A DNA stretch of 64,000 nt from a virus (lineage: Duplodnaviria; Caudoviricetes): IMG/VR virus record IMGVR_UViG_3300013426_000016, positions 96,001-160,000 of that record. One strand, written 5' to 3'. Each line of letters begins with the position of its first letter. Position 1 is the first letter of the stretch. Below the pieces are notes generated by a model. It worked only from the letters and a program-made list of their open reading frames with translations. It was not told the origin of the DNA and did no database searches. The translations under genes and the position numbers were made by a program. Shown one piece after another: positions 3,001 through 64,000 of the stretch.

Positions 3001-4730
3001 TCATAGCGATGTTGCCCAGCGAAAATCATTCCACTCAAGAAACCTCCACCAAAAGACGCTATATATCTTTGTATTATATCAGAAACACTAAAACCAAAAT
3101 CTATCGGTTCATCATCTTTAGTAGTTTTAATTCCTAATGCATCTAAAGCAGTTGTAGTAGCCTTTACAAGGTCTGTAGTAACTTCTTCCATGGTTTCCTC
3201 AGCACCTTCAGAAAAACCTCTATTAATTAAACCAGGAACACCTTTTTTAGAAAGACCTTTAAGCATTGTATCCTGGTAAAAATTAGAAACTTTATTTAAG
3301 AAAGTAGCTGCTTTCTGTGGCGTTTCTAATCTAGCAGCATTTGCTAAAGCATCCGCAGTTTCTCTAGAGACTCCTCTTACAGCAGAACGAATTTCACTTT
3401 CATCCATAAAAGTATCTTTAAAGAGATTGTCTCTAAAGTAATCGATATTCATTAATTTATAAAGAGCCAGTGTACTAGCAAGCATTCCCAAAGAAGCAGT
3501 AGTATCATTAGCACCGGCTTCCTTAAATGCTCCATAAGTTTCTTGTGCAGAGGTAGCAGCCATATAAGCAAGAGAGAGATTCTTACTTACATCAGAAACG
3601 GATTTTAAATCTTTAACGCCATTAGCTTTTGCAATTAAAGTAGGAAGAGTGGAAACCGCACGCTGTTCAAATAACTGTTTAGAAATATCAGCTACCAAGT
3701 TTCCTATGTTTTCAAAAGATACAAAGTGATCTCTTCCATAGTCAGAAGCAGTAGTATCATATGCAGCAGCTCTATTCTCCCAATTAGTAAGAAATTCTCC
3801 TATAGAATTATCGTTTGTACCCGATATAAGACCATTAACAGTTTTACCAAAAACAGGCATTACTCGAGCAATTGCATTAGCCGCACTTACATAACCATAA
3901 ACTTCTCCAACATAAGGTATAAATAAAGGAGCTACTTTAGCTACTAATTCTAAGGCTACTTTACCAGCTCCTTTCTTTACATCATCACTATCGAAAATAT
4001 CTACTTTGTTTCATTTAGAGCCATCTACAGTAAGTATATCACTTCTGCGAAGTAGATCCTTGCCATACATTTCTCTACCAGAAAGAGTTTCATAATAAGG
4101 TTTTCCTTCTGCATTAAATTTTAAATCTCCCGCTTTATGTGGAATTGTAATGCCATTTTCTTCATGTGTACCATCTTCATCCCACTGTGCTAAAGCCATA
4201 GAAGGTAAAGAGAACCAACTAAACAACCCTGCTTTATCATTTGGCGTATAATCAAGTTCTTCTCCCGTTTCATAATCAACTACTTTCTGAGTTTGTGCAA
4301 TCTCACGCACACTCAATTTATTCTTTTTTCCAGAAAGTTCCGTTATATAAGAAATACCTTGTGAGTAATCAAAAGGTTTTTGGTCTACAATCATTATAGG
4401 ACTTGTATCCCTTTTAATTGCATCTGCTGGAGCATACCAAGCATCTGGACCAAAAGAAAGATTTCTTGTTATATTATCAAATAAAGAGTCTTCTGCCATA
4501 GTAGCATACTGTATCTGAGCATCTTTATAAACAGAGTCAAATTTCTTTTGGTCAAATTCTCCTGTAGGAGTTTTAAAAGCATCTACAACTTTAGGCATAG
4601 CCATATACTCCTCCTTAGTAAGCAAGGAGGAGTTTTCGGCAGTGATTCCAGCATCTTTAAAGTCAACTAAAGAAAGTTCTGGATTCTTTGTTATTATGGC
4701 TAAAAAATCATTCTTTTTTGTTTCATTCAT
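1..4730 (-). CDS. Giant virion-associated (ejection/cargo-type) protein, N-terminal ~1576 aa, truncated at window edge; contains a P-loop NTPase motif
   Basis: ATG at 4730. One TGA at 4011 (DGSK-W-NKVDIFDSDD), after which the frame appears open to position 1. Motifs GFSEGAEETMEEV (~3200) and Walker A VLGSAGSGKT (~270-300). Confidence 0.75.
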
Positions 4731-4731
4731 A

Positions 4732-6612
4732 CTACCAATTTGTATTTGTAGGATCACTTAATTTTTCTTGTGCATACATAGCCTGTTGTCTGGCCACGTC
4801 TCTACCAGTAATATTAGTGTAATCAGTTTTAAATCTATACTCTGGATTATAAAGAGATGCTCCTATAACAGCATCAGAAATAGGTATATATACATTTGCT
4901 TTATAAAGATTCCTTTTAATAGCTCCACGTTTAAGCCCTAAGAAACCAGTTCCTATATCAGAGGTATTACGTTTATCAGCATTCTTGGCGTGATTAACAC
5001 TTCCATATTGTCCCATTTCTATATAGGCATCTAAAGAAGGCATATCGTCTTGTAGTAATTCATCAGCAGAAGCCATATAATCAGAAGGAGTAAAATCAAT
5101 AGCTTTAGAAGAAGCTACTCCCCCAAAAGTTAAGAAGGCTCTAGAACGGCTTTCTGGATATTTTACTAAACCAGTGCTTTCATCATATATAGCTCCAGGA
5201 CACACTTCTTGTAAATAACGATTTATAACAGAAGCATCTTCCCCTTTTTCTTTGCCGTTTTTAACTACGTTTTCTACCTTTTTAATTACTTCAAAATCTG
5301 GTATTACGTCTCTACCATTTTCTGCTGTTTTAGCAGGAAGTACAACTCTATACATATTAGAGCCATCATACATAATACCATCTAACTGGTTTCTATTAAT
5401 TACTTGGTCTCCAAAAACAACAGTGTCTGTGCCTACTTGTCTTATACCGTGAGCTTGCTCTAAGAGTTGTGCAACACTTACATTACTCATTGCTTGCCCT
5501 AAATTACCACTTCTATCATAAGCAACGGGACCCATATTTTGTCCATAAACAGATAAAGCAGTAGTAGACCCTCCTGTATATATAGGTATTCTTTGTGGTG
5601 CCGGTGCTCCTTCTCCAGTAGCATACATTTCTGGAACAGCCCCTTGTATTAATCCAGAGGCTCCACCTTCACTTCCGGAACCAGAAGTTCCACTTGCTTG
5701 TTTTTCATAAGAAGGCGTAATGGAACGCCCAGTACCATTAATAATAGTTTGTAAAAGAAATGCATGTGGATCAAATTTATTTACAGCAGCCTGTGCATAT
5801 AAATAACGTTTGTCCTTCTGAGGAAGAGCTGAAATTATATAATTTAAAGCAGTTTTAAGGTCCTTGTCTGCTTCTGTACCTTTTTCAGTAATTTTATAAA
5901 TACCATCCGGTCCTGTAGCAATTAAAGTAGAAGCATTATTTCCAGCCAAAGAAGAGTTTACTATTTCTTGCATTCCAGATAAAATATTCTTTCCTTGTTT
6001 TACAGCATATCCAGTAACCTCGGTTTCTTTATAATTTTTAATAATAGTATTTACATCACTTAAAACTGTGTCCATGCCGATAGCTCCAGAGACATCATCT
6101 AAAACACCATTATTAAAAGCTAAAGAAGAACTCTGTCTACGATAGTTTAATAAATCACCAAAAGTTAAAGGCATATATTTATTTGCATTCTTAGCATATT
6201 CTGTAGGAGAAATAGTAGTTAAACTCCCGTTTGCATCTACAGCATATAAGTTTCCAGCATTAGTAGTAGCAACTTCTCCCCAAGCATTATTTGTAGTCAG
6301 TGTTGCACGAGCTTTTTCATAATCTGCATAATTATTTGTAGCAGAAGTTGCCATTTGTGCAATACTTAAAAAATCTCTAGCGGTCAAATGATCTCCATTA
6401 GGATCACCAGCTAAATCTAAAGTCATTTGTATTTTATTCATTAACTGGCTCATGTCAGAGTCCAAACCTTTGGTTTTTAATAAATCAAATAAACTTTTTG
6501 TAAACTCAGAGGTTTTAGAAGAAGAGGCAGTATTTTGTTGTACTGCCTCTCCACTATTAGAACTCGTAGGAAGATATACTATACCTCCCGTCTGAAATGT
6601 TTTTATTTTCAT
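4732..6612 (-). CDS. Putative virion cargo/ejection protein (626 aa)
   Basis: Long ORF lying between two giant ORFs. N-terminal KTFQTGG motif. Ends TAG. Confidence 0.6.
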   Translation of the reverse strand: MKIKTFQTGGIVYLPTSSNSGEAVQQNTASSSKTSEFTKSLFDLLKTKGLDSDMSQLMNKIQMTLDLAGDPNGDHLTARDFLSIAQMATSATNNYADYEKARATLTTNNAWGEVATTNAGNLYAVDANGSLTTISPTEYAKNANKYMPLTFGDLLNYRRQSSSLAFNNGVLDDVSGAIGMDTVLSDVNTIIKNYKETEVTGYAVKQGKNILSGMQEIVNSSLAGNNASTLIATGPDGIYKITEKGTEADKDLKTALNYIISALPQKDKRYLYAQAAVNKFDPHAFLLQTIINGTGRSITPSYEKQASGTSGSGSEGGASGLIQGAVPEMYATGEGAPAPQRIPIYTGGSTTALSVYGQNMGPVAYDRSGNLGQAMSNVSVAQLLEQAHGIRQVGTDTVVFGDQVINRNQLDGIMYDGSNMYRVVLPAKTAENGRDVIPDFEVIKKVENVVKNGKEKGEDASVINRYLQEVCPGAIYDESTGLVKYPESRSRAFLTFGGVASSKAIDFTPSDYMASADELLQDDMPSLDAYIEMGQYGSVNHAKNADKRNTSDIGTGFLGLKRGAIKRNLYKANVYIPISDAVIGASLYNPEYRFKTDYTNITGRDVARQQAMYAQEKLSDPTNTNW

Positions 6613-14317: not shown

Positions 14318-15432
14318 TACTCAACCTCCTTTACTAAACCAGTATTATCATCACAGTTATTAAAAAGAGTGCATACAATGATTTTTCCACACTCTATCAT
14401 AGAATCTTCATCTCCTTTTTTCCAGAGATCTTCTACTTTATTTGTGAGAGATTTCTCTAGAATCATTTCATTTCTTTCGATTTCTGCACATTGTTCTACA
14501 TTTCCTTTTTCATCTGTAACTACTACCGGTATTCCTTTATTTGTAAGTTCTTTAGCTAACTCCGGATTTGTCTCATCCATATTATGTTTATTTTTATGTA
14601 AAGCTCCTTCCGGAATTAAAATAGAACCTCCATTTTGGAATTTAGTTATCTCCTTTTTACATGCTTGTATTTTATGTAACTCTTCTTTAGAGAGTAATTT
14701 AACCCCATCTTTAGCATATAAGCCATATCTTTGGTTTATTTGATGCTGAAGTTCTTGAGAAGTATTACTATTCTTTCTAAGCGTGTTAGTATTATATATA
14801 TTTGAAATCATTTTAGCTTGTTCGTTAGCAGTATTAATTCCAGAATTAATTTTATTTCCTCCCAAGAATCTTTGTCCTCCCATATCAGCCATAGTATTTA
14901 TATAATTAACACTATTTGAGTAAGCACCAGAAAGTTTATCTACGTCATCATTTTTAGCTACTTCTCCAGTTTTAGACATAAATGCACCAGCAAGAGGCAC
15001 ATAAGAGAGAGTATTGTTCATCACTCTTTGAAAATCAGAAAGACCGACTGTTTCTTGTTCTGTTTCTGACATTGTACTACTATTTGTATCTGTAAAATCA
15101 CCTATAGTAGAAAGAGTGTTCCAAACTGCTCCCGCAGCCATTAAATAAGGATTGCCACTTTGCATAGCAAGATTTCCTATAGCTTTTTGTCCAGAAGAAG
15201 AGGTTCTTTCTTTAGGAGTAGTAAATCCAGAAGTTAAATTATTCAGTAAATTAACTCCAGTAGAAATATTTCCTATTTGCTGAGAATAATTATTTCCAGT
15301 GCGTCCTCCTACAGTTGCTTTTGGGCGCAATCCATCAGATTTTTCAGTAACAGCTTTTCCTATAAGAGGATTATTACTTGAGTAATGATTATTCGCTAAC
15401 TGAGTTAATGTATTTAAAAAATCTTGTGTCAT
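14317..15432 (-). CDS. Putative virion protein (371 aa)
   Basis: Translationally coupled ORF. YAKDGVKL and KFQNGG motifs; C-terminal AEIERNEMIL. Confidence 0.6.
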   Translation of the reverse strand: MTQDFLNTLTQLANNHYSSNNPLIGKAVTEKSDGLRPKATVGGRTGNNYSQQIGNISTGVNLLNNLTSGFTTPKERTSSSGQKAIGNLAMQSGNPYLMAAGAVWNTLSTIGDFTDTNSSTMSETEQETVGLSDFQRVMNNTLSYVPLAGAFMSKTGEVAKNDDVDKLSGAYSNSVNYINTMADMGGQRFLGGNKINSGINTANEQAKMISNIYNTNTLRKNSNTSQELQHQINQRYGLYAKDGVKLLSKEELHKIQACKKEITKFQNGGSILIPEGALHKNKHNMDETNPELAKELTNKGIPVVVTDEKGNVEQCAEIERNEMILEKSLTNKVEDLWKKGDEDSMIECGKIIVCTLFNNCDDNTGLVKEVE

Positions 15433-18400
15433 TAGCTATAACTTATTGTTAATAAAGTTTTTAGAGCTGTAATTATAACCTGTTCAGTTCCAGTATATTT
15501 AACTCTTATCTTAACGTATTTATCTCGAACTTTTGCAGATTTTAAATCGCTCCAACGACCTTCTACATTTTTATATGTTTCTCTAAATAAAATAGGATCT
15601 ATAGTAACATACCAAGCATCTTCTTTATATTGGATATTTCCCAGTCTCCTACCAAAATTATATATGTTCTTACATGGCTGATTTAATACCAAAGAATAAG
15701 TATTTAAAGTAGTATCCCATTTAATAGAACAATTCTTAAACCTCTGTGTAACTTTAGTAGTTTTCTTTTCGGTCTCAGTTGGATTATATGTAGATGCTTG
15801 GATTCGAGGAGTATAATCAATTTCTTTGGCATATTTTCATTCTTTCTCTGTTATAGAAGGATATACTGTCAAACCCTTTTCGTCTACAGTAAAATCTTCA
15901 AACATATTCGGTTCAAAGGTTTTAGAAGCAAATATGCCAGCTTTATTAAAGTTAAATACGTCTCCTATAATTTCGTATTCAATTTCATTTGGTTGCACAT
16001 TATTAGAAATAATAACCAAATTATCAAATATCTTGTGCATACCTATAGGATCGTTAACTACAAATTCGAGTTCAAATGGTTCTTGTTTTTCATACCATTT
16101 AGTAGGTAAAATCTGATCATCTAAAGACTCGTTATCGTAATTTATTTCATCAAATATACCAGCTCTTCCATGCACATAAAAACCATTCTGCAAGAAAACT
16201 CTCTCCAACTCTTCTCTATTTGTTAGCTTCTGATTATTTAAAATTAACCCAACACTCTCAGTAAAAGAAGAAGTCCCACTTCCTATTTTTAAAGTGATTT
16301 TTAAATTAAATTTAAACCACAATGGGAAGTGATCGGCATCCTTAAATTCTTTCATAAATGCCTCTAAAATCGTGCTATAAGTTGCTTTAATAGTCTTACC
16401 CTCAACAGTAAATAAAGACGATTTTAGGGTAGTTTCTGTAACAATTCCAGCCTCTTTAAAAGAGGTTTCAACCGACATAATTTCAATAGTATAATCATCG
16501 ATATGGTCATACCCTTTTAGATTAATTGGCATCGAAAGTGTGGAGTCCATATTTGCTGGTATAGACCACTCATTTACGGGCGTATAGACACCTAAGGTAG
16601 TATTCCTATTATTATATATTATACTGAGCAATTTGGCCCGTTTCTGATCCAAAGAGTAGAAAATGTTATTAATGTTTTCTGAGTAAAGAGGAGTTCAAGT
16701 ATATCTTGTAATCCACTTATTCATTCTTTCATTAAAACATATATTCCAGCTCTCTTTATCTTTATTATAGAAAGTAAACATTATGTCTCCTTTATAATTA
16801 TTATAATGAGACTTAACATTTCTAAGAGCTACTATAGGAGACTTATCCATTTCTGATAATTGTATCTTATTATTAAGATACTGTTGTATTTTCATATCTG
16901 AAATGGTTTCTAAACCAGAGCTTCCATATCTCCAAATTTTCTTTGCATAGGTATCTACACCATATATGCCATTAGGAGTTCTAACAACAGATTCTGGCCA
17001 TATAGAACCGAAATCTGGAGAAATTAAAGTAATCTGATTTTGTACTACACCTGCCCCGTACATATGAATAGATTGTGAAGTAGAAGTTTGTATAAGGGCT
17101 TTTTCGTTTATTGGTATAATACCTAAACCATGTTCAAATACGCAGAAAATATTACCATTTAAAGGTAAGAATTTAACTATAGCTCCATATTGTCTATCTA
17201 TATCTTTATAATCAAGACCTTGGAAAATTCTATAAGAGTTTTTAAATTCATCTTCTTGTTGCACATCGGAGAACATAATTCTGTTATCAAATAACTCCTT
17301 AACATAAGGTACGTTATCTGCAACAAAATTTCTTTTTTGTCCTAATGTAACATTATAACCTTGGTTTAATAGCCAGCTCTCTTCTATTTTAGAAGAAACA
17401 GTAGCATTCATATCAGACAATGGATAAAAGCTTCTAGAATTACCCATAAGGGCTCTCTCATCGGTATGAGAAATGTCTTCTGCACGTAAACCTAAATTAT
17501 AATTAGAAAGGCATTTAAAGGTCACTCAATGGCCTAAATTAACAGAGTTTACATCTGCCCTATTTATACTTGCATAACTTCCAGTAGAGTCAGTAGCTTC
17601 TCCAGAAGTCATTTTATTGTAACCTTTATAATTATCTTTCCAGGTACTAGGACTCACTATTAACTCATTTATAGGAACATCTGAATCTATAAAGTTCCTA
17701 TTAAGTCTAATTGTGACAGTATTTGTATAACAGTCTCCCCTAAAGACTTGTATAGTATTTGTATTTCCCAACTCATATCTATCTGAAATAGCATAGAAAG
17801 AAGAATTATCTTTTCCTCTAATAGAGAAGTAATCTTTTAATCTTGTTATAGAATAATTAGGAATCCTAATATCGTATATAGTATTATTTTGTAAAGTTCT
17901 ATTTGCACCTAAGAATGGACAATATAATCCTCTGATTAAATTATTTGCACTAGCACTATAATCGGGCTGACTAAAGAAAGAGAACTGACTCACATCTTCT
18001 TGAGTACCACATTTAGTGGAATAACTATATCCATTTATATACTTCATAGGAGAATCGGAACCTACAAATATTAAAGAAGTGTTTGCACTCTCTTTAGTTA
18101 AAGTCCCACTCTCTTTTAAAGCATAATGTCTTTTAGATTTAGTGAGAGTACCTACTTTATTTGTTCTTGGATGCAAAATAAATTCAGAACCATCATAATT
18201 ACTTTGTAAAGTAGGATTAACACAGGCATCTAAAGAAAGGAGTCCAGAACATTGTATATATGGAGTTTTTACTATTCTATCTTCATAAGTTTGTGTTAAT
18301 AATCTAGAACCATTAGAAACAAAACTTTCTGAAAAATATTTTTCTCCATCGTACAACATTGGTACATAACTAGATCTATCTATACCTACAGAAAAGCCTT

Positions 18401-19946
18401 GCCCTAAAGTAGTAGGAATTCTTTCTTGTCTTACAAAGAAATACCCTTTTACTTTATATTCTTTTAAGAGTTCTTGTATTTCATTAGAAATGGAAAGCTC
18501 ATAATAAAGAGGTTGTACTTTACTATTAGTATAATCAAATATTGTAGCGTCCGGGTTCTTAAATACTCCAAAAGTATTATCTAAGAATTTGCCTTTATTT
18601 AGAAAGTCATCGCGAGTTAAATAATTCATTTTAACTTCAGAAGCATCTATTAAAGAAAGTGCATTATTTGTATACTTGTAATACTTTAAGGTAGAGAGAT
18701 CTTTATAGACTTTATCTGCTTCTAAAGTAAGCGCTTTAGTACAACCTTTATCAGAATAAAATTTATTTTCTTTATAATATCCAAAGTAATCTCCTTTAAG
18801 TTCAGTATCCTCTCTATCTGTAAAGTTATCGTCATTTATAGCAGAAAACTCACATCCTCTAAGATTAAATACAGAACTTAAAGAATCATCATTCATCACA
18901 AATACTACTCCAAGTCTATATATTTCATTTGGTCAGTAACCAAGTTTATAATAGATGTTATTTGGACTGTAATATTCAGTTTGGTAGTTATTTGCACTAG
19001 AAACACTATAATCATCTGGAGAAACTCAACCTATATTAGATTCTTGCTTAAGTGCTACTTTTATATAGTATGCTATATTTTGTAAATCCTTTATATTGTA
19101 GGTAACACCTTGCACATTTCCAAGAAATAGCATATTCTGAACTTGAGCTTGAGTCTTAGCAGCTGTTACTAAATTATATTTAATATTAAGTTCTTCTACG
19201 GAAATGTCAGTGATTTCCTCATAACCATTTAAAGTTATAGTTTCTACGTCATTCTTAATATCATATGGCTTTGTGAACATTCCTGCTTTAGTAAGCCTAA
19301 TTCCATTTGTATCACTAGTTTCTCTTACAAAATAAAGATAGAACTTAGAAAAAGAGGTATCTATATTACTAATTTTTAAAGTAATTGCTTTATCTGTAAG
19401 TTCATTCAGTAAAGTTCCAGATACAGAAGTTACTTTATCTAAATACCCTTTAAAAATGGCTACTTGTCCAGACTCGCATACTATATCTGTTTTATTGTAA
19501 TCATTATCTGCAAACTTTATATAAAAGGTATAATTACCGCCTTTTAATTTTCCGTAATTAGAAACATCATTTAAATCTATCCTTGGTATTTTATTTATAT
19601 TTCTAAATAGTCTTGTTTGACGATCTATTTTACCTTTTTTATATAAGTTGGTTTGCTCTAATTGATTCCTATTTATGACTTTATATCTATTATCTTCTAT
19701 TTTAGTAAACCTTGTATTAATGATTCTTGGTGGATTCTTATCATCATTTAAAATAAGATTCACTGTACCATCATAAGAAGGTTGACATTCTATATTAAGA
19801 GGGTTATTTAAATCTATATCCAGCTCTTTAGTTCTAAACTCCACTATTTGATTGTTTTCGTCTACTTGATTAAAAAGAGCGTGATACTCGTTTGCTAAAT
19901 CCCCTTCTTGTTTATTTGCTTTTATATTAAGTTGTATATTAGCCAT
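15432..19946 (-). CDS. Tail stabilization/nozzle-type protein (~1504 aa; five track ORFs joined)
   Basis: All five fragments share one frame. TGAs at 19026, 18933, 17526, 16695 and 15837 (GY-W-PNEIYRLG, WITRYT-W-TP). C-terminus KYVKIRVKY...TISYS resembles crAss-like tail proteins. Confidence 0.75.
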
Positions 19947-22900
19947 TTAAATAAAAGTCTTTTTCTGTAAATCCTATTCTCTGTCTTAAAATTCCAACAA
20001 CGCCGTTATCAGTTAATTGTCCTCTTGCATAAACTTCTTCAGTATTACTTAAAGTGCCAGCATTTAAACGGGTAATAAGAGTATCGTTTACATCATAATC
20101 GCCTTTATAATAAAAATCTGACTGAGGAGTAATTATTCCTGCTCCATATACATCAGACTGATACTTAGCAACTTCCGTAGCAACAAGCTGTTTTCTACCT
20201 TCTTTTTCTCCTGTAGTAGTAGGTGTATTATCTATGGTTTTTTGCAGTGCAGCAAATGCAGAATCCTTCCCAGAAAAATCGAGAGTAAATTTAACCACGG
20301 CATCTTTAGTGTTAAAATCGACACTATCTAAAGAAGTATAGTCTGAAGTACTATTTGCACCCACTTTTAAATTAGGAGTATTATATAAAGTATTTCTATC
20401 AGAAGGACTTAAGAGATTTTTACTGTTATATGTAAATGTAGTAAAATTAATTTTCCCATTTCCATATAAAGATGCACCGTCACTTACTTTAGTAGAAGAG
20501 CCTTTAATAGTATAAAATCCACCTACAGTTTCTGAAGCATAATCACTTGTTACATGTTTAACGCTGTTTATCCAAGTAGTAAATATATTTTTGGCTACAG
20601 TTTCATTCTTTACAACAGCTCCGGTTTTTCGTATATTAATTAGGCCTATGTCATTTCCATGCTTAACTCCTACAAAATAAATACACTGAGTATCTGTACC
20701 TGCATTTTTTCATACGTAAGCTTTGTTATCTGGATCACTACTCTGAGAAGGAGTTTCTACACCAATAAAAGCATAGTTAGTGTTTCCTCCCTTATTAAAA
20801 GTACTAACAGATAAAGCGAGAAGGAACACATCGTCTGTTTTTAATGCAGAAGTTAGTGCTTGTAAAATACTAGGAGTTAGTATATTACTAGTTTTACTAC
20901 TTCCTTCAAATCCAAATCCTTTCCAAACTCCACTTGTATAACCAGGAATCTCAGAAAAATAAAGATGTATTTCTCCACCTTTAGCATTTTTAGAAGCATC
21001 ACACCATCCACTTACATCTAAGCTATAAGTAGAATAAGTAAGACTCTCTTCTACATAACTTCATATAGAAGCACTTTTAATTACAGGTTCTAAATCGTAA
21101 TGAATAGTTTTATTTCCCGTAACACTCAAATCGCCAAAAGTAATACTGCTAGTAAGAGTTCCAGAGTATTTAGAGAAAGTAGTTGTTTTAGAAGTATCGT
21201 TTATATCAACTTCCATTTTAGCTCCAGAAACAAGATTTTCCCACATAGGCCCTGTAAGAAGTTTAACTTCACTAGATGCCGTAACATCCATTTTACAAGA
21301 TGCGTTGCAGTATAAATCAAATCCGTTTTCTATTTTTTCTACATTTCCGTCTACACCATCTGTCATAAAGGTATTATAAACACCATTATTTCCTTTAGGA
21401 CTCTTTATATTAGAATTAGACATTCAAGCAGTATAACCAGGAGTAACTTGTACCTCTCCATAATCTACTTCGCTCTGAGGTATTCCATTTAACTTTAATT
21501 GCTTGTTTTGTATTAAAGTTTGGTAATTACCCATCCATTGATCAAATGAGATTTCATCATATCGGGAATCAGTAAATCCCTCCATTACCTTAGATGCCAC
21601 TATAAACTTAGTAAAAGTAGCTAAAACTTCAGCAGAATCACTCCAAGTAGAATTTCCTATAATATCAAACTTAATAATATAAAAATCTTCTGGAAATAAT
21701 GCTTTTGGATTACTTGTAACATTATCACTTGTATAAGGCACATAAGGAACAGAGAGATTAGTTTCTCCAACTAAATTTCATTCTTCACACTTTATGTGCT
21801 TATATGCAACTTTACTTGCATTTGTAGCATAATCATTTGGGGCACTTAATTTACTAATAGAGTAATACATATAAATCTCTGAAGTAAGTGCGGCATTCTT
21901 AGAAATGCCTTGTGTATCAAACATTATATCAAGTGTAGAATCTCCAAGATTATACCACCAAGAGCTGTTTCCTATTTTTATGTCTTCAATATTTCCTTTA
22001 GCATTTAAGGAATATTTATAGGATTTATTTAAATTATCGTAATAAACTATAGAAGTAGTCTCTCCAATTTTATAAGTCAAATAAGGCTCTATTTTTATTT
22101 CTACATTTTTATCTTTAACTAAATAAGAAGATAAATCGATTACATCTGAGAAATATAAACAGTTGCCGTTTTTTAAATCAAGTTTATTTGGTACTGAGGC
22201 ATTTAAAGTATTGGAAGTCTCTCCTACAGTTATAGTTATCTTCGCTTTCAGATCATTTGTGGTAGAATTTAAAATAAGCGGGTCATTAACCGTATACTGA
22301 ACACTTACTTTAAAAATAGGACTTCCTGCATAAGTAGGAACCACAAATTGCTTAACATTTAAGTCCATACTCTCCACTCTTGCAAATACAGGTTGTAAAG
22401 CTAACCAACCAGGAACATCCCATTCCACATAAGCAAAAGTATCTGAAGTATGATTTGCATTTTTTATTTTATCTGTAACATCGTAAGATTTACGATTTTC
22501 ATCTAAAACATAAAATTTAAGAGTTTCATATTTAGATGCTCCAGATAAAGAGGTAATCCAATTAGAGAGTTTATATTTATCTCCAGGATTTATTTTTAAT
22601 TTATTTGGATCTTTTCCGTAGAAAACCTTCATGTCTTGTAGGTTCTCTACTATATATGAATAATTAAGAGTATTTCCTGTTGCGCTATCTATAGATGTCT
22701 GTATAGCATCTAAAGAAATACTTTCATCTAGGTCACTAGAAGTAATAGTCTTAGGAGCAGGATAAGAACCTATTTCTGTTTCAGTAGTAAGAGGATTATA
22801 AGAAACTATATATAAAATATCTCCATATTCTTTTATTCCTACTGGTATAAAATTCTTTTCTAGTTTACAATTAGCTAAAGGATAATTCCCTTTATCATTT

Positions 22901-45913: not shown

Positions 45914-48900
45914 TTATACTATATAAACTCTTCCTGAGGATAGAGAATCCCCGCCTCAAGAAAGAGAAAGATTATTTTCATCTGTATATGTAATTCTTAC
46001 AAACACTTCTTCTCCTTTAGAATCGATTGTTGTTACAGAAGGTCTTTTTCCTAAATTATGACTTATGTTCATAATATAAGTAACTCCGTCTTCTTGTAAC
46101 GTTCCATTTATAAGATATTCTTGGCTAAAAGCTGTGCCTGTAGGTAAATTTTCTTTTGGTATTTTATTGTTCTCATCTAAAGTGGGAACATTTATATTTC
46201 CTTCTCCAAGTAAAGACTCATTATTAATTGTCTTTATATTAGAACCACTGACAAGTTTTTCTTGCTTAGCTGCTAGAGTGTTACCAAGATTTAAAATCTT
46301 TTCTATTGGAATACCTTCTGGTATATGTGCAACATTAATAGTTACATCTAAAAAAGGATCCTGGTTTCTTTGTAATGCAGCTCACATTTCATCCTCTGAA
46401 AAACTTCCTCCACTTCCACCAGAACTTCCTCCAGCATCTTTACCACGAGCAGAAATAAATCCTTCAGCCCATAAGCCAGAATAAATAGGATTTAACTTTA
46501 AAGTCTTCGTACCATCTGTTTCTGTCTGTATTAAGAACATTTCAGAAGCAGTATTTCAAGTAGTTTTATCAGCTTCAGTTAATAAAGAATAATTCTCAGC
46601 AAAAGTAAGTTCTAATGTGCCACTACTTGTAATAGGACTTCCTTCAACAACAAATCCTTCTGGAACAGAAAGCGCAACACTAGTTACAGTTCCTTCTGGA
46701 ATAGTAGGTTTATTAACAAGATCATTATAGTCTCCAGTAGTAGCTACTGTTGCAAGATCACTTAAAGATACTTTACTAGAAATAAGAGTATTTAAATCAG
46801 ATAGAGTTTTAGATAGATTATTAATTTTATCCATACTTAATGTTGGAATATGACCAGCATCAATAGTATGATTTATAAAATCACCTTCATTTTTCTCTAA
46901 AGCTGCCCACATAGCTGCTTCAGAAAATCCACTACCACTTCCTCCAGCGGTAGTATCCTGCCCTCTAGCAGATAAATATCCTTCTGTTCATAATCCTTTA
47001 TATTTAGGATTTAATTTTATAGAATTATCCTCTTGGATTAAGAACATTTCAGATAAAGTATCTATAGTTGTTTTATCATCCTCGGTAAGTAAAGAATAAC
47101 CACTCGATAATGATACCCCTATAGTACCAGAAGAAGTTATAGGAGAATTTGTTACACTAAAGCCTGTAGGCATAGAGAGTCCCACACTAGTAACAGTTCC
47201 TTTGGGTCCTGCATTAATAGCGTCGCTAATAGTTTGTAAATCCCTCTCTAAGTTTTCAATATGACTTTGGGGAACATTCTGTATGTGAGCATTATCAATA
47301 GCAGTACTATTATATGCATCCTCTACTGCATTTGTTAGAGACTTCCATACTGCATCTATATTTGTTCCTCCCCCACTACTACCCCCACTGGTATCTTGGC
47401 CTCTAGCAGATAAATAACCATTAGTCCAAGTACTATAATTAAACTCAACAGAGTCTATTTCAGAAGTATCCTCACCATTAGTATCTTTCTTAAAGTGTAT
47501 AGTAAAGATTTTACTCCAAAAACCAAACTCAGCTTGTACAGAGAGAAACATGCCCACTATCTGAGAAACCAGGGTATCTCCCATAGTTACATCATCGCTA
47601 ATAGTTAGTTTAAATTCTCCATCAGCGTCTTTTCCTCAAGAAATCAATCCTCCTCCTACTCCACCATAACCATTTTCATCCCAATATATGTTTCCGCCCG
47701 CTTCATAGCCAGAACCATCGTGTCTAAATATGGTCATGGCATAATCGTCTGCATCATAGGTAAAAGTAGAATCTTTTTCCGCTTTTGCTTTTAGGACATC
47801 TAAATCTTCCATAGGTCCACCATACCAAGCAGCAATAGCTTTAGGATTATAAACTCCATCTACAGTGTCTATACCACTTATACCAGCAGTAAGTATATTT
47901 TTACCTTCAGAATCAACTCCTTTCGTATTTCCCAAGCCTATTCAATTAGTAAGAATAAGACCTCCAGAAATAGTAGTAGTTCCCTTTTCAAGGGCTTCTT
48001 TTATATAACCATAATTATCATTTAAATAGGTCTGAGCAGCTTTATATATAGCCTGTTCTATATATTGATTTGTTTTCTCTACTTCTGTGCTATATGCTCC
48101 TAAAGCCGAATTAAAGCTATTATATGCTGTCTCATAAGCTGTAACTAAAGTAGCTAAATTAGAATTAGTTTCATTAACCTTAGTAGGACCTTCATTTATA
48201 ATAGCTTGTACAGCAGCTTTTAATACTTGGTAAGCTCCTGTATTTTCTTTATATAAAACTAAGAAAGCATTTGTTAAGGCTTCTTTTGTCGCAGTTGCTT
48301 CAGTAGTTCCTAAATACTCATTTTTAATAAGAGTTCCATAACTATTAACAACATCTTGCATTTCACTAGCAAGAGTTTTTAAATAAGTTTCTAAAGAACT
48401 TATTTCATCTAAAGTAAGAACTCCATCCTTTAAAGCAGTACTTAAATAATTATTTATCTTTCCAGCAGCACTGCTAGCTTCTCCTGCTTCTTTCTTTGCT
48501 TCTCGTGCAATTAAAATAGCTTCTGCTGAAGCGTGATCCGCAACTTCCACCCATTGGTAGGTTCCGTCTTTAACTGTAAATCGATATGCAGAACCTTGTA
48601 AAGTACCCTCTACTATATAATATAAATCACCGTAATGGGCATTATATGTATCATCATAATCAGCAACCACATAAGCAGTACCGTTCCATTTAAATGTAAT
48701 GCTTTGGTAGCTTCCTATAGTTCTTATTTTGTAGTAAGTATTTGTATCTGGAACTATAGCGTTTCCAGAACTGTCTTTTAACCAAGTAGCAGATTTTTCA
48801 GTTGCGCCTTCTACTATATAGGCATCTAAGCAAGGATACCATTTATTTGCTGGCCAAGAACTTAAAGTAGGTAAAGCATGCTTACTTGCAGCTGGATTAT

Positions 48901-50038
48901 CATTTTCTTCATCATCTGAAAACCAAGCTTGTACTTCATCATCTATTTGCTTTTGTAAGTTCTCCAGCATATTATATGTATTACCGCCAGTAATATTAAC
49001 TTGGCCAGTAATAGTCAAACCTGTATCTGGATGATAATCTAGAAATTCACTTCCTTTGCCTATATGGAAAGCTCCATTTAAAAAGTCTAAGTACTGTAAG
49101 CCATCAGCAGTCTTAAATACATAAGCTGTGATTTGTCCAGGGAGGATTTCTGTAAAGCCGTTCATGTACCCCACACTCCTGTCTCCATCTGTAGCAGAAG
49201 TAATTATAGCACATAAAAGATAATAATCATTCCCCACTTCAGATTCAAAAGAGGTTTGTGAAAGTACAAATTCTCCAACTCCAGAACCTTTAAGGTCTTG
49301 ATTATTTGCTATAGCTTCTTTTATTTCATCGTCTGTATATGGATTTCCAGAAGCATTTAAATATTTAGGAACTTTTATATACAAATAATAAGAAGCATCT
49401 GGATTATCGAAAAATAGTCTTGTGTCTTTATATGTTTTACCAGAAACAACTCTTTCTATATCACCTTTAATTGCCCATCTTGCATAATAACGATAGTCGA
49501 GATTTGGTTGTACTGCTTCTGGTCCGTCTAATTTAGTATGTAATATATAACATTCTGGGCAAGTAAGTGTTTCTGAAACAACATTTACTCCTGGAGCAAC
49601 AACTAAAAAACCGTCTTTTGTAGTACCAGTAACTGGTTTAAGGTTTGATACAAAATTATATTGTAAGTTCTCAGAACCTACAACTAATTGCATTGTACTA
49701 ACTGTTATAGGATTTATAGATTCTGTAAATCCTTCTAACTTAGCATCTTCTAATAATCTTTTAGTTTCTTGTAAATCTTCCCAACCTCTTTTGGTAATAT
49801 AATTATTTAAAGAAGCTTTTAAATAGGCTTTTGTCACATATTTAGAAAGATCTGGAGATTCTGGTATATTAATATCTGGCTCTACTGGCTGATTAATAAT
49901 AGTAGTTGTTCCATTCTCTTGGTCTCTAAAATGTAATTCATAATACCTATCTGCTACTTTAACATATACTTTACCAGCTGTTTCTAATACTAGGTTTTTA
50001 TTCTTTTCTCCTAGTACGTCAGCATTATTTATACTCAT
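45914..50038 (-). CDS. Proximal tail fibre/hub protein (~1374 aa; four track ORFs joined)
   Basis: Six TGAs (47942, 47636, 46988, 46556, 46382, 45956). Internal repeats (GTVTSV.LS.P.GF.V..SPITSSGT; SARGxD). C-terminal SHNLGKRPSV domain. Confidence 0.75.
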
Positions 50039-54319: not shown

Positions 54320-56527
54320 TTAAGTAGGTATAACGCCTCTACGTTTAATACCATTTTCGTCTGTATATCATCCGAAGTTTTTCCACTGAGAAGCAGTTGC
54401 TTGTACAGTAGATGGAGTTATTCCAGTCATATCCTCGTCTCCCAGCTCAACCATCTGCAACGCTGCTATAATATCGAACTTTCTCTTATACTCATAAGAG
54501 TAATTCAACATTTGCTCTAGCATTTCTTTAAAGTCTATAGTATGCCAGAAATCATTAATAAAGCTGCCAACTAATTCAAGACCGTGATTAATAACTGCTT
54601 CTGTAGAAGGTACACCTATAAGCTGCTTACCTGTATTTCTTTTATTTGTTACTGCGAAATCTGGACGTTTCATAAACAAATGGCCCATATTCCTGTCTCT
54701 AAAGTAAGTTTGTATAGAGATTTTCGTATACTCAAGTAATGCCTTACAATTATACCAAACTAGCAATTTCATAGCCATATCATAAGCCTTACGTATATCA
54801 TCTGGACGTTCTTTATACATAGCTACGTATCTAGGTTCATTTAACCCAAAGACTCTCTTCTTAATTACTATACAGAAATCTGATACATCTTTACTTGTAG
54901 CAGAGTCTCTAGAACCCATATCGATAGCATCTATACCAGCAACATAAAGATTTTTATATGGTTTGCCTTCAGCATCTAAAAGAGGGGGTTCTACAACAAA
55001 TAAGTTAGATGAAGCACTTTCTACAGCCTTAACCTTAGAGTATTCTTTGCCAGCAGTATTATCCCATAAAAGTTGTGTTCTAATCGGCTTAATATAATTA
55101 TTGTTTGTTTGTATCTGCACTAACCTTTCGGAAATAGCAGCTGCATCGAACATGTTTCCAGCATGCTTAGAAAGTGCCTCTCTAGGTGTAAAACAGTGCT
55201 CAGCGCATTCATTTAAGTAGTCTTTATCAGTTAACTTAGAACGCTGAGCATCATAGTATTTTTTAAATTCTTTATAATTAGTAACTCCTCTTTTATCTAA
55301 GTACTTGCTCACCAAAGCAAATTTATGAGCAGGTATAAAGAAGCCGGATAGCTCTGGTTTTCCATCGTCAGTATCTACATTCTTAAATTTCAGAACATTA
55401 TAGCCATCCGGATTATTAAATATATTTTTTAATCCTTCGAGAGAAATATCGTCTCCACCAGTTCCGACTGCTATTCTGGTTCCGAAATGTTCGCCTCCTA
55501 AGGAAACAAGAGCGTCTCCTTTAATCCAAGATTCTGTAAGTTTCGGCGCTGAACCAGCCTCATCATAAATAAGTCTATCAATTCGCTGTCCTCTGACTTT
55601 ATCAGAAGTATCCGCTACTACAGTATTAATTTGTGACATCCATCCATACTCAATTCCATCTGGAGTCTTTAAAGATGCTCTTTTTGTATCATTATTATTT
55701 ACTGCCAAACGAGCATGCCTCATTCCTCCTCCAGTATTCATATTTAGTCAGTCTAACTGTTTTCATACTTTTTCTCTTAAAGGGGCAAGTTTATTTTCAG
55801 CAGCACAAGTAAGCATTACATTATATCCTTTATTTGTAGTATATGGACGTACTGCAAGAGATGCTAACATCTCGCTAGCGCCCAAACCACGGGCTTTTAA
55901 TAGACAAGCGTCTTTATGTAGCTTCTCGGCCATTTCCAAATAATGGAAAAATTCATACTGCTTGGAGAGAAATCCAGGGAAAGATTCTGCACGTCCAGTA
56001 CCAGAAATAGCGCCTTCTTTAATTACAAACATTCTATAGTAATTAATAAAGAAGTAATGATCACCAGTAATACGATATTTTCCAACTGTATAGCCCTCTC
56101 TACATCTTCTAAACTCTTCTGTTCAGAAATCTTTATTTGCTTTACTTCCTTTAGGAAACTCGGTATATTTACCAGTCCTGTTATAGGTCTCGCCTCTTTC
56201 TCTAAATGGAGTAGGATCGAAATCAAGTCCTTCTTCCAAATTAATAGGCCTATAGCCAGTTATTTCATAAGAAAGATCCGGATCAAAATACTGTATCTCT
56301 TCAGTTAAAGGAACATCTCATTCTTCATTTGGACGCTTTTTATGCACAAATACAGCAGTATTTAAGTAAGTATCCTGGGCTTCTTCTTGCTTTCCAGATT
56401 CTTCAAATAACTGTTTCTTTAATTCCTCTTCCCACTTTTCACTGAAAGAAGGTAAGGCTGGTTTCTCTTCCTTTTTTGGTTGTTCCTTAGAAGCGAAATC
56501 CTTATAAGTAGGTAATCTTCTAGGCAT
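54320..56527 (-). CDS. terL: Terminase large subunit (735 aa with TGA=Trp)
   Basis: ITGDHYFFINY, Walker A LKARGLGAS, Walker B LIYDEAG, GTGG and RNase H-like YVAGIDAID. TGAs at 56318, 56123, 55763, 55748 and 54368. Confidence 0.9.
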
Positions 56528-58331: not shown

Positions 58332-58528
58332 TTGTTCAATAAACATTTTTCTTTTTTGGATCTCACTTTAGCATCTATAAAGCAGCCACACATAGTACAA
58401 ACATCCATATTAAAAACTTTTGTTTTATGTAAGCAAGCTTTACATTTAAGCAATCTATCTCTTTCTTCACTTGTTAGTTTACAAAATATCTTTCTAAACC
58501 AACCTTCTAATATATTAAAAATTATCAT
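58325..58528 (-). CDS. Small Cys-rich (zinc-binding) protein
   Basis: R...CxxC...CxxCGC...K......C...KW. Confidence 0.7.
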   Translation of the reverse strand: MIIFNILEGWFRKIFCKLTSEERDRLLKCKACLHKTKVFNMDVCTMCGCFIDAKVRSKKEKCLLNKW

Positions 58529-58746
58529 TTTCCGGCGACACAATGCCCTTTAGGATTCTTAGCTTTTAAAGTAACAATACAATTGCAACCCTTTATATAA
58601 CCTTTCTTTGGAAAATAACTCCATTCATCAGTATCTGGGTTTATATATCTTTGAGAGTTGCATCTCTCACCAAGAACATCTTTTTTATATAAAGGGCATT
58701 TATAACAAATATTCAGTCGCTTATTAGCTAAGTCTTCTATAGTCAT
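58522..58746 (-). CDS. Small Cys-rich protein, paralogue of the downstream gene
   Basis: R..ICxxCP...GCNC...K......CVAGK-W(TGA)-TAA. Confidence 0.7.
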
Positions 58747-60662
58747 TATTTTATATAAGGTATATCCTTGTCTAATTCCATTTTCATCTTTAATTGCTTT
58801 TTATAATGCTTCAACATCTTTTCTACTTCATCCTTAAGATATGGAACATCTAATTCAGTTTCATTTTCATTCCTATCTATATGAATTATCTTCAATCCTT
58901 TAATTTCAAAATTAGGATTTATTTGTTGTAGCATATAAGCATATAAAGACAACTGACAAGCATAATGATTAAAAGTACAGTCTTGCAGATTATTTAATGG
59001 ATATTTCATCATCTGCCTGGATTTAGTAGCTCTATTGTAATAGGACTCTTTTTCTATTTTAGCATTAGTATTATGAGTAGGAATTAAACCTCTTCCAGCT
59101 AAATAAGTGTGTGTAGGACTATCTACTTCTATACAACGAGTAGGAACTGTTTCTACTTCTTTTACAGAAACAACTCTTCTATAATAATGCATATCTCGCT
59201 CCATGTCCGTAAACTTATCAGCTTTATCTTGAAATTTAACCAAGAAAGGATTTATTTCTAAGCTTCTCCATCGAATATAAGTTTTACCTTTTTTGGTAAA
59301 GAGCCCACATTTAACACCAAAGGAGGTGATTAATTCTGACAAATATTTAGTTTCATTAGGGTTTTTAGGCACTATAACATAAGACTTATAAAAAGCTCAC
59401 GATATTCCTCTAGCATCCATAATTCCTCTTAAAAGAGCTAAACGGTCTTCATAAGAAGCCATTAAATATTCTTGTGGTATGTGCTTATTATTTATTAGAT
59501 TTAATTTATTTAGACGTGTTCCTAAACAAACAGAGCTTTTATAAATATGTGTACCTTTAGAAAAAGGAGCTATTTTAAAATTATATCCTTTCTTATCTAA
59601 TTCCTCCATTATTTGCTTATCTCTCGCTGGGATAATACTACAATCCTCGAAACCAATAGCTAACCATACTCCTAGCACATAAGGATCTATGAGTAACTTA
59701 TTTTTAGGAAGATTAAGGGGGGCTGGATTATATATACGTATAGAATAATCAGGTTTTGTCTCTACTCAACTCTTTATTTGCTTTGTAGTCATTACTTTTT
59801 CTGGAAAGCAATCCTCTCTAAACCTATAAGCTACTAACCAACGATGCTCTTCATCTGCAATTAAAGTTTCTCCAGTATCAAAAGTAAGCTCATAACAAGG
59901 ATTATAATGCACTTCAGAAACGTGAGTAATATTTACTGGATTTCCATCTCTATCAAAAACTTGGTCATCTAAAGTAAGAGTACCCATAGTTTTCCATCCA
60001 TTCGTAGTTAAAATAGGAGTGTTTACATCGAGACCTTTTCAGTCTATAATATAAATATCATTCTCATCTTTAATTAAACAATCAATTTGCCCAGAAACTC
60101 TCAATAACCCATCTTTACTTGTAACAGAAACAAGAAATTCTGGGTATACACCTTTAGGAGTATCCAACTTAAAGTAATCTTCTTTACAATCAAACACTCC
60201 TTTTAAATCCTTAAATCCGTATCTTCCGAAATCAAAATCTTTTCGGTCATAAAAAGATAATTCTTTCTTTAAATGCTGTGCTGTACCATGTTCACAAGCT
60301 TCTTCTCTTTTTGCCTTATATGAGTCTAGGATTTCCTGTTTCTTCTTAAAGAATTCTTCTTCATTCATGCCTAATTTAGAAATTATTTTATTATCAAATT
60401 TCTTTTTGGCTAAAAGAACTTTCTTAAGAGTTAACCAAGTGTCCATATCCAATAGAGCTTCGGCAGCCTTATAAGAAGACCAGAAATCTTCATCAAATTC
60501 TTCACAATACTTTCCAATTAACTGTGTAACTGAAATATAAGGTTTCATATCTGCTTTATTATAGTACTTATGTTCAGCATCATTAAAGAAGCACTCATCA
60601 TTTTCCTTATCTACTTTTATTCCATTAATGTATTTATCTTCAATTATTTGTGATTTTGGCAT
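58746..60662 (-). CDS. PD-(D/E)xK exonuclease precursor with intein (638 aa; mature ~316 aa)
   Basis: EHKY, YISVTQLI, GTAQH, SGQIDCL...IID-W-K|T-N and Y..QLSLYAYML. Three TGAs join four track ORFs. Confidence 0.85.
59070..60035 (-). mobile_element. Class 3-type intein (322 aa) with N-terminal Gly and degenerate LAGLIDADG domain
   Basis: Block A GLDVNTPILTTNGWKTMG; block B ADEEHRW; block F VPTRCIEV; block G IPTHN|T. Confidence 0.85.
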
Positions 60663-62277: not shown

Positions 62278-62336
62278 AATTATTAGTTATTAAGTTCATA
62301 TTATATACTTATTTGTTCGGTATTTTTGTTTTCCTA

Positions 62337-62406
62337 CAAAAATACTGTTTTATTTCCAAATAAACAAATAAAAACTTGATTTAGAATTTAAAATTAATTA
62401 ATTTTG
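62337..62406. promoter_or_regulatory. Divergent Bacteroidota-type promoter pair
   Basis: Minus strand TTTG-N20-TATTTTTG (62368-62337). Plus strand CTTG-N20-TAATTTTG (62375-62406). Confidence 0.6.
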
Positions 62407-62424
62407 TAGAAATTACACATTAAT

Positions 62425-64000
62425 ATGCCAGATAAATATAAAGTAAAATTAAACGAGTTACCTAATAAAAATATTTTAGGTACTCCGTGAACTACTGATG
62501 ATAATGGGTATAATTGGTATGAAGCATCTAGAGAAAATGTTCCCACACAAAACGGGGAGCATGCTTCATCACGAAATCCATATACAGGTAGAATTTTAAA
62601 ATCTGTTCAGCATCCAACCTTTAATAAAACAGTAATAGGAGAAAAGATAGCTGGATATGATTTTTATACAGATAGAGACAATAATCTATACTCCTTTAAT
62701 GAAAATCCGGGAGAAGATTATACTCCTATAAATATAGATATAGATGAAAACGAGATTAAAAATAGGCAAGCTTTTATGGAAAGTCGATTAAATCCTAATG
62801 CAGAATCTTACAGAGGAGCGAGAGGTTTATTTCAAATAATACCAAGAACACAAAAAGCTTACGAGAAAGAAAATAAAGTAACAGTAAATCCATTTAATCC
62901 AGAACACAGTACACAAATGCGAGACTGGTTATGGAAGAAGTTGGATACTACTAAAACTACTCAAGGTAATAAAGACTTTGTTGTATTAGCTAAGAAATTA
63001 GCAGCATATAATTATGGGCAAGGTAATCTTGGTAAAGCTTTAGAAAAAGCTAAAACGGAAGGCATAGATATTTATAATACAATAGATTTTCTTCCTTACT
63101 TGCCTAAAGAAACACAAAACTATGTAAAATTTATTCTTATGAATGAAGATGCTGGTAAAACATATAATAAAGATTATGACAAGGCCATAGGAAAATACCA
63201 ATCTCCTTCTGGCCCCCTACCTTTTAAATGGAAAAATATAACTATTCCAGAAACTCCTTCTGTAAATTTTACTCCTACAGATCCTTATACAATAGCAGAC
63301 GAATCTTTACCTGCTTATAGAGAACTGCAAACACTTAATGAAAGAATGAAGAAAGGAGAAATAACTCCAAGTGTATATGATTATAAATATAATAATTTAA
63401 TTAAGCAAATACATACTTTAGGAGATGAAAATCCTTCTCTTTATAAAACCTATTTTCAGCATCAATCAAATCAAGCTTTAAATCAAATAAGTGAAACAGT
63501 AAGTCCTTATAAAAAGGCTGTAGCAGCTAAATCCATGCCTGAAATAGGACCGTTAACAGAAGATCAGAGAGAATATCAAGCAGAACAAGAAAGGCTTTTA
63601 AATGCCCGTAAAAATGGTGTTGCTGATATATATAATAATCAATATAACTCAAACTTAAGTTATGAAGACTGGGAAAAGGTTATAAATTTCTATAATTCTC
63701 CTTACAAGCATGTAAACATAGGAGCACCTATGATGGGAGCAAATACTGTTCTTTTTGCAAATACACAAAAAACTGTAGACAGGCACTCTGATCAAAGATA
63801 TGCAGAATTAAATGAGAAATATCCAGAAGTAATTTCTAATATAGAAAATGAAATTACAGAAAATGATAGTAAACAATCTCTTGTTTATGATGGTATACCT
63901 GCATTACTCGGTACTTTAGCTGCTGGAGCACCATTACTCTCTTCTGCTTTAAATATTGCTGGAATGAAAATAGCTACTGCAATACCAAATACTTTTGGTA
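62425..64000 (+). CDS. Large protein with lytic transglycosylase (SLT) domain, truncated at window edge
   Basis: ATG at 62425, TGA at codon 22 (62488), then open to the window end. MESRLNPNAES.RGARGLFQIIP, LAAYNYGQG and LPKETQNYV motifs. Absent from the ORF track. Confidence 0.85.

What the first reader, a model, noticed from the sequence alone, without database searches (positions are those of the whole stretch)
4011..62490. TGA reassigned to tryptophan across the whole window, on both strands
Seen: about 55 in-frame TGAs in 23 genes. Reading through them closes the gaps and leaves genes ending in TAA or TAG. Internal controls identify Trp: repeat copies GL-TGA-TEG vs GLWAEG, and EM-TGA-AAL vs AMWAAL; paralogue ends GK-TGA-TAA vs NKW; motif positions D-W-K-T, P-W-EIEA, AL-W-WMDDG and GGYF-W-SY. 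Known: TGA=Trp recoding occurs in some crAss-like phages whose Bacteroidota hosts use the standard code. Inference: a suppressor tRNA or release-factor modulator is encoded elsewhere, as I found none here.
Basis: partly seen in the sequence, partly recalled or inferred. Interest (0 to 1): 0.75.

Follow-up and report, generated by a model that had tools for sequence, protein, structure and literature searches.

The report
Recoded phage, suppressor tRNA needs helper
This gut phage reads the stop codon TGA as tryptophan, which is already known for its family; what looks new is that its own TGA-reading tRNA barely works alone and sits beside a small protein gene that is found only with tRNAs of this kind and probably helps them work.

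Summary
Confirmed: 55 in-frame TGAs in 24 window genes, aligning to tryptophan. The window is the late region of a 157-kb crAss-like, probably Zeta-group, phage, where TGA=Trp is published. Its tRNA(UCA) lies outside the window (C1:38494), between TGA-free early genes and the recoded replication block. No release factor or TrpRS gene was found.

Apparently new: this exact tRNA was tested in a 2025 preprint's E. coli extract and gave near-background UGA suppression. All 13 tRNAs with a second, CCA-bearing arm were active. A small helix-turn-helix gene follows the short tRNA here. All 31 viral loci found by that protein's motif carry a short tRNA(UCA). It is missing from 7 dual-arm genomes, and a 98-99% identical strain replaces short tRNA plus gene with a dual-arm tRNA.

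Best reading: the protein substitutes for the extra arm, probably at charging by host TrpRS (about 45%). This is untested. The 204-kb record is two phages joined at a shared repeat.

The parts
4011..62490 (.). Late (virion, packaging, start of lysis) region with 55 in-frame TGA = Trp codons in 24 genes; genes end in TAA or TAG. The decoding parts lie OUTSIDE the window, on genome contig C1 (window = C1:96001-160000): short tRNA(UCA) at C1:38494-38567 (+), its candidate partner gene P0272 at C1:38828-39286 (+, 152 aa, helix-turn-helix core, no TGA), and the TGA-rich replication block at C1:42598-59648 (+)
   Evidence: outside parts:
54320..56527 (-). Terminase large subunit, 735 aa under code 4, 5 TGA and 7 TGG; TGA sites are W in homologues
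45914..50038 (-). 1374-aa protein with internal repeats in which TGA and TGG alternate at the same repeat position (6 TGA)
38172..44249 (-). 2025-aa gene with 4 TGA against 51 TGG, showing that TGA is the minority Trp codon in the late region
15432..23037 (-). Two large structural-block genes (1504 and 1032 aa) with 9 TGA; several sites are TGG in relatives
29892..31617 (-). Two intron-associated endonuclease-like ORFs (1 TGA; 4 TGA with 0 TGG) among three Rfam group I introns at 28683-32774
58522..60662 (-). Small gene ending TGA-TAA (paralogue ends TGG-stop) and a 638-aa exonuclease-domain gene with 3 TGA
62425..64000 (+). Lytic transglycosylase (SLT) gene, the only + strand recoded gene in the window (TGA at 62488)

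Best explanation
A 157-kb crAss-like phage infects a standard-code Bacteroidales host and switches UGA to Trp during infection. Early genes avoid TGA altogether and can be read by the unmodified host (pattern shown; timing inferred). At the end of the early block the phage makes a tRNA(UCA), after which replication, virion and lysis genes with TGA become readable (layout shown, conserved in 8 genomes; mechanism inferred). The phage has no TrpRS, so the host enzyme must charge a tRNA that lacks the CCA anticodon identity element. Relatives solve this with a tRNA carrying a second, CCA-bearing arm, which works alone. This genome's short tRNA hardly works alone in E. coli extract and is paired with a small helix-turn-helix protein that is never seen with the dual-arm tRNA. 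The protein most likely makes the short tRNA usable; I put about 0.85 on a functional link and about 0.45 on its acting directly at charging, as an adaptor between tRNA and host TrpRS. TGA=Trp itself is about 0.98. The confidence given is for the whole chain including the charging step.
For: Recoding. Early block 1 TGA vs 103 TGG, and 1 TGA among 47 code-11 stops. tRNA at the boundary: 47 TGA/550 TGG in 20 kb upstream vs 274/402 downstream over 8 genomes. No TrpRS or RF in 15 genomes. CCA anticodon and G73 are the major E. coli TrpRS identity elements (PMC2965240). Allele swap: locus L447 (98-99% identical flanks) has a dual-arm tRNA and lacks the two small ORFs; three other runs show a 123-base replacement of the same size there. 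Whole genomes: protein present in 5 of 5 with short tRNA, absent in 7 of 7 with dual-arm tRNA; tRNA type changes 4-5 times on the TerL tree. 31 of 31 loci found by the protein motif alone (about 22 distinct) have a short tRNA(UCA), most within 800 bp upstream; no HMM hit in 49 dual-arm loci. Published cell-free data: this tRNA 6993 RFU vs 5403 no-tRNA and 69124 wild type; dual-arm 13 of 13 above 26,000, short 2 of 13 (Mann-Whitney p=1.5e-4). The short tRNA identical to that of relative G008, which carries the protein, was inactive alone but was recognised by a phage TrpRS, which points to charging as the blocked step.
Against: The core fold is a generic helix-turn-helix closest to DNA-binding domains (LuxR/NarL, sigma region 4; best Z 5.0, rmsd 2.1 over 47 residues; Sigma70_r4_2 E=0.0012), which fits a transcription regulator at least as well. 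The cell-free test used E. coli extract and in vitro transcripts, not the Bacteroidales host, whose TrpRS may charge the short tRNA unaided; it is one representative data set, and I classed the tRNAs by eye. Two short tRNAs were active alone. Some family members have TGA inside the core (L466, L468, L473, L474, L488), so they need readthrough to be made. Many dual-arm loci have short flanks, and several genomes are near-duplicates. This tRNA has G1-C72, reported as unfavourable for E. coli TrpRS. The host is not identified.
Confidence: 0.45

Rival explanations
1. The small protein is a DNA-binding regulator that raises or times transcription of the short tRNA (or of host trpS), making up for poor charging by quantity.
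For: Helix-turn-helix fold like LuxR/NarL and sigma region 4; stand-alone 55-78-aa forms that are little more than the HTH; position at the early/replication boundary.
Against: A timing regulator should also be useful to dual-arm phages, yet it is missing from them and is lost together with the short tRNA in a near-identical strain. I did not look for an operator.
Confidence: 0.25
2. The protein acts on decoding: it weakens RF2 or the ribosome's termination at UGA so that a weakly charged tRNA can compete.
Against: Dual-arm tRNAs face the same RF2 and work without the protein. The G008-type short tRNA was recognised by a phage TrpRS, which points to charging.
Confidence: 0.12
3. The protein and the extra arm both protect or mature the tRNA (against a host anticodon nuclease, or by recruiting a U34 modification) and have nothing to do with TrpRS contact.
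For: Explains the mutual exclusion equally well; the phage carries tRNA-repair genes (RNA ligase, PNK).
Against: The activity gap between dual-arm and short tRNAs appears in E. coli extract without any phage defence, and the extra arm keeps the Trp anticodon CCA in 30 of 34 long-arm tRNA(UCA) candidates (that scan did not ask for CCA, but its set overlaps an earlier one that did).
Confidence: 0.1
4. Ordinary Zeta-type recoding with nothing more: the host TrpRS charges the short tRNA unaided and the HTH gene only travels with it as a linked cassette.
For: Single-change tRNA-Trp(UCA) is charged in chloroplasts (PMC5102678); two short phage tRNAs are active alone; E. coli is not the host.
Against: Linkage survives tRNA divergence, intron insertion into the tRNA, separations up to 7.9 kb and protein divergence to about 25-30% identity.
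Confidence: 0.08
5. The TGAs are real stops, pseudogene lesions, another amino acid (Gly, Sec), or reflect a code-4 host.
For: ARAGORN labels the tRNA SeC under code 11, from the anticodon alone.
Against: Homologue columns are W or aromatic. All viral-contig relatives at 50% TerL identity or more (about 70 loci) carry in-frame TGA in TerL. The tRNA has no long arm. Early genes avoid TGA, which a code-4 host would not require. 13 phage tRNA(UCA) inserted Trp by mass spectrometry.
Confidence: 0.02

Closest known systems
Opal-recoded Zeta-group crAss-like phages (Yutin et al. 2021, PMC7886860; phage Lera, PMC12386605)
   Same: Genome size in the 145-192 kb range, TGA=Trp in TerL and other genes, group I introns, PolA, tRNA(UCA).
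   Different: Only 3 tRNAs by ARAGORN. The replication block is more recoded than the late genes in this genome (0.67 vs 0.24), which relatives do not share. In the parts read, these papers mention neither the tRNA's boundary position nor a partner protein.
Code-switch model and the Jade 'code change module' (Borges et al., bioRxiv 10.1101/2021.08.26.457843)
   Same: Standard-code-compatible early genes, a suppressor tRNA, recoded late genes, TGA-rich homing endonucleases.
   Different: No TrpRS and no RF1 here; the switch falls before DNA replication, whereas the crAss-like and Agate examples there keep replication genes in standard code.
AP1 and HF2 phage TrpRS:tRNA(UCA) pairs (bioRxiv 10.1101/2025.10.30.685624)
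   Same: Short tRNA(UCA) that is inactive with E. coli enzymes alone and needs a phage protein.
   Different: There the phage protein is a full TrpRS; here the candidate is a 55-150-aa helix-turn-helix protein with no synthetase match.
Dual-arm ('decoy anticodon') tRNA(UCA) of recoded phages
   Same: Occupies the same locus in relatives and in strains of this phage.
   Different: This genome has the short allele plus the protein gene.

Membership tests
Genetic code 4 (TGA = Trp) | In-frame TGA aligns to Trp in homologues | tested here: met
Genetic code 4 (TGA = Trp) | TGA not used as a stop; TAA and TAG remain stops | tested here: met
   0 TAA/TAG in frame in long genes; 1 TGA among 47 early code-11 stops; code 15 gives no gain
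Genetic code 4 (TGA = Trp) | Trp found at TGA in the protein products | not testable with these tools
   needs proteomics
Code 25 / selenocysteine | TGA aligns to Gly or Cys; tRNA with Gly or Sec anatomy | tested here: not met
Crassvirales | crAss-type TerL and portal | tested here: met
   TerL matches crAss001 at E=2e-32 and 71 phage records over 80% of its length; phrog_6681, phrog_6547
Crassvirales | Three giant virion RNA polymerase-block genes | tested here: inconclusive
   three ORFs of 1543, 3017 and 2826 aa, syntenic in relatives; not annotated by profile here
Zeta group (proposed Echekviridae) | Genome of 145-192 kb | tested here: met
   157,187-bp unit; complete relatives 145-183 kb
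Zeta group (proposed Echekviridae) | Many group I introns or inteins | tested here: met
   3 Rfam introns in the window, portal intron, split replication genes
Zeta group (proposed Echekviridae) | TerL clade with named Zeta genomes | tested here: inconclusive
   TerL 24-29% identical to classified crAss phages, 45-70% to large relatives; no named Zeta sequence was on hand; G009 matches c815351 in length and tRNA count but not in GC
Jade-type code change module | Phage TrpRS and RF1 beside the suppressor tRNA | tested here: not met
Dual-arm tRNA(UCA) | Second hairpin with CCA in the variable position | tested here: not met
   4-nt variable loop in this genome; met in strain L447
Sigma-70 region 4 / LuxR-type HTH regulators (for P0272) | Profile match over the curated cut-off | tested here: not met
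   18.9 bits vs cut-off 25.7; fold likeness only, Z up to 5.0
Sigma-70 region 4 / LuxR-type HTH regulators (for P0272) | Sequence-specific DNA binding | not testable with these tools
   needs a binding assay

The most novel reading that the evidence does not exclude
Recoded phages without their own synthetase have two interchangeable ways to get a UGA-reading tRNA charged with Trp by the host enzyme: an RNA decoy arm, or a small helix-turn-helix protein that acts as an adaptor and overrides the anticodon check of host TrpRS. The protein would be a new kind of translation factor that changes tRNA identity.
Probability: 0.4. Interest if true: 0.85.

Novelty: new variant of a known kind. Interest (0 to 1): 0.6.

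Why it matters
The recoding alone is known and matters for annotation: under code 11 TerL, PolA and many virion genes break into pieces. How recoded phages that lack a synthetase and release factor carry out the switch is an open question; Borges et al. suggested unknown RNAs or enzymes. This locus names a candidate protein, supplies a natural control (a near-identical strain with the dual-arm tRNA and no protein), and has a published assay in which this very tRNA is near background. One cell-free experiment tests it. If it holds, it would also give a protein-switchable UGA suppressor for genetic code expansion.

Tried and rejected
Complex prediction of P0272 (residues 1-72) with a Bacteroidales TrpRS dimer gave no verdict (score 0.00); this is no evidence either way. 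Foldseek and PDB sequence search found no significant match for P0272; ESM Atlas gave only leads under 0.9; PHROGs had no family. Prophage-in-host reading of the GC-rich flanks rejected: they encode a terminase 55-58% identical to 44-46 kb Bacteroidales phages such as PD491P1 and AS73P1, total 46.7 kb, and no tyrosine integrase was found. 'TGA is enriched in replication genes' as a general rule rejected: true here (p=4e-10), not in relatives. Code 15 rejected. Single-protein TerL scan failed; an alignment worked. No RNA holder was listed. Literature searches found no description of the dual arm or the partner protein, but the library lacks most subscription papers.
Full report
Observation. ORFs of 150 aa or more cover 58% of the window under code 11, 78% under code 4 and 59% under code 15. 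I count 56 in-frame TGAs in 25 genes between 4013 and 62488. One lies in an intron of the portal gene (read by eye), leaving 55 in 24. In nine long genes the frame holds 35 TGA and no TAA or TAG, while the other two frames hold nearly 2000 stops. TGA is the minority Trp codon in this region, 53 against 170 TGG.

The residue. In TerL, 518 of 560 homologue residues at the five TGA sites are W; in PolA, outside the window, five of nine TGA sites are W in at least 119 of 120 homologues. Some TerL homologues were themselves translated with TGA=W, so I repeated the test on codons. With relatives' TGAs set aside, window TGA sites align to TGG 51 times, Tyr 32 and Phe 5, the same profile as TGG sites; Gly, Cys and Arg align to TGG in under 0.3% of columns. 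Stop, Gly and Sec readings fail.

The genome. The record is 203,856 bp and the window is C1:96001-160000. A 32% GC unit of 157,187 bp is bounded by a direct repeat, 613 bp exact and 888 bp at 96%. The flanks are about 52% GC, use TGA as their commonest stop (17 of 34), total 46.7 kb and encode a terminase 55-58% identical to 44-46 kb Bacteroidales phages. In two other runs a contig joins the base before the right repeat directly to the left repeat, and a strain protein sits on a 156,636-bp contig. So the record is two phages joined at a shared segment, probably by the assembler. The shared segment hints at a common, standard-code host; that is inference. TerL matches crAss001 and other classified crAss phages at 24-29% and large IMG/VR genomes at 45-70%; all of those loci at 50% identity or more (about 70) have in-frame TGA in TerL. 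Size, introns and code fit the Zeta group, where TGA=Trp is published. I could not place it in a tree with named Zeta genomes.

Layout of the switch. ARAGORN and Rfam find a tRNA with UCA anticodon at C1:38494-38567, with G73 and a short variable loop. The early blocks hold 1 TGA against 103 TGG and hardly use TGA as a stop; the replication block that starts 4 kb after the tRNA holds 43 against 21. In eight genomes the tRNA sits at this boundary: 47 TGA/550 TGG in 20 kb upstream, 274/402 downstream (the relatives' gene sets are automatic and include some noise). Replication genes being more recoded than late genes is special to this genome. No release factor or TrpRS gene was found here or in 14 relatives.

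Two kinds of tRNA. Some relatives have a short tRNA(UCA) like this one; others have a long one whose variable arm copies a Trp anticodon arm with CCA. The scan noted that form before on other DNA. Both occur at one locus in this phage species: strain L447, 98-99% identical on both sides, has a dual-arm tRNA and lacks the 69-aa and 152-aa ORFs that follow the short tRNA here. Three further runs show a 123-base replacement there, the size of the L447 allele; I could not read their letters.

The partner gene. The 152-aa protein P0272 (C1:38828-39286, no TGA) has homologues in G001, G002, G008 and G012, all with short tRNAs, and none in G003, G004, G005, G007, G009, G011 or G017, all with dual-arm tRNAs. 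Two predictions held: G008 turned out to have a divergent short tRNA that ARAGORN missed, and G004 and G009 have the 3' half of a dual-arm tRNA behind an intron-like sequence. tRNA type changes four to five times on the TerL tree, with G012 (short) sister to G003 (dual) at full support. A scan by the protein motif alone gave 31 loci, about 22 distinct: 25 have a plain short tRNA(UCA) upstream on the same strand, five an intron-split short one, and one is G008. A family HMM finds nothing in 49 dual-arm loci, many with short flanks. The family core is about 55 aa and also occurs alone. The model is confident (pLDDT 88.8) and the core is a generic helix-turn-helix.

Published test. The supplement of bioRxiv 10.1101/2025.10.30.685624 lists UGA suppression in E. 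coli extract for 31 phage tRNA(UCA). tRNAUCA-21 is this genome's tRNA letter for letter and gave 6993 RFU against 5403 without tRNA and 69124 for wild type. Classed by eye, 13 of 13 dual-arm tRNAs exceed 26,000 and 11 of 13 short ones stay under 12,000 (p=1.5e-4); five doubtful sequences were left out. The three short tRNAs that I can tie to the partner gene (21, 19, 29) reach 2.5, 9.9 and 0.5% of wild type above background. tRNAUCA-29, identical to the G008 tRNA, was recognised by a phage TrpRS, and the two short tRNAs from phages with their own TrpRS worked with it. Since the CCA anticodon is a major TrpRS identity element, charging is the likely blocked step. The authors do not discuss the extra arm or the partner gene in the parts I read.

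Mechanism and odds. Shown: the code, the layout, the two tRNA alleles, the linkage and exclusion. From print: weak activity of this tRNA alone in a non-host extract. Inferred: that the host uses the standard code, that the tRNA performs the switch, and that P0272 makes it usable. I put 0.45 on action at charging, 0.25 on transcription control, 0.12 on RF2 or decoding, 0.10 on protection or modification, 0.08 on passenger status.

Verdict. The finding as stated is real and known for this phage group; on its own it would score about 0.2. The tRNA-partner module that came out of following it is, as far as I could find, undescribed and can be tested with an existing assay. It lies outside the window and its function is untested, so I score 0.6.

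Noticed in passing
genome C1:24866-25753 and 182053-182940 (L002, L008): 888-bp segment shared at 96-100% between the crAss-like phage and a 46.7-kb GC-rich standard-code phage with a reverse transcriptase; joins the two genomes in one record and suggests recent gene exchange across genetic codes.
   Followed up: partly
window about 52670-52895, - strand: Small group I-like intron splitting the portal gene, missed by Rfam; the 86-aa ORF with 2 TGA there is spurious. Relative L018 has the portal split at a similar place.
   Followed up: partly
window 28683-32774, - strand: Three Rfam group I introns with two endonuclease-like ORFs split a structural gene, probably the major capsid gene (not verified); the ORFs called there as exons have no TGA.
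   Followed up: no
window 58746-60662, - strand: 638-aa gene with an exonuclease N-terminus and a 210-535 stretch matching parts of terminase and helicase profiles; probably an intein.
   Followed up: no
L447:3880-3975: Dual-arm tRNA(UCA) allele replacing the short tRNA and two ORFs in a near-identical strain (SRR29834392).
   Followed up: yes
L452, L453, L454, L457, L459, L460: A second short allele (about 90% identical; several contigs named Hadza) keeps the 152-aa gene but has lost the 69-aa ORF, with compensated acceptor-stem changes.
   Followed up: partly
L474, L476, L478, L479, L492; G004 near 45300; G009 near 143100: tRNA(UCA) genes split in the anticodon loop by group I-like introns, in both short and dual-arm forms; this hides them from tRNA finders.
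   Followed up: partly
genome C1:42598-59648 (L003, L004): Replication genes use TGA for 67% of Trp, against 10-24% in virion genes; relatives do not show this skew.
   Followed up: yes
L008:837-892 (genome C1:170837-170892): Type III hammerhead ribozyme near tRNA-Met.
   Followed up: no
L003:8737-10323 and L007:18754-19416: Phage-encoded GroEL-like chaperonin with no Trp codon at all, and a ClpP protease.
   Followed up: no
G012:83959; G005:41394; G011:16354: Extra tRNAs called with UUA or CUA anticodons in TGA-recoded relatives that show no TAG or TAA in TerL.
   Followed up: no
supplement of bioRxiv 10.1101/2025.10.30.685624: Several active amber suppressors (tRNACUA-132, -135, -139, -147, -148) also have an extra arm, with CUG (Gln) in it; the same design may apply to UAG.
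   Followed up: no
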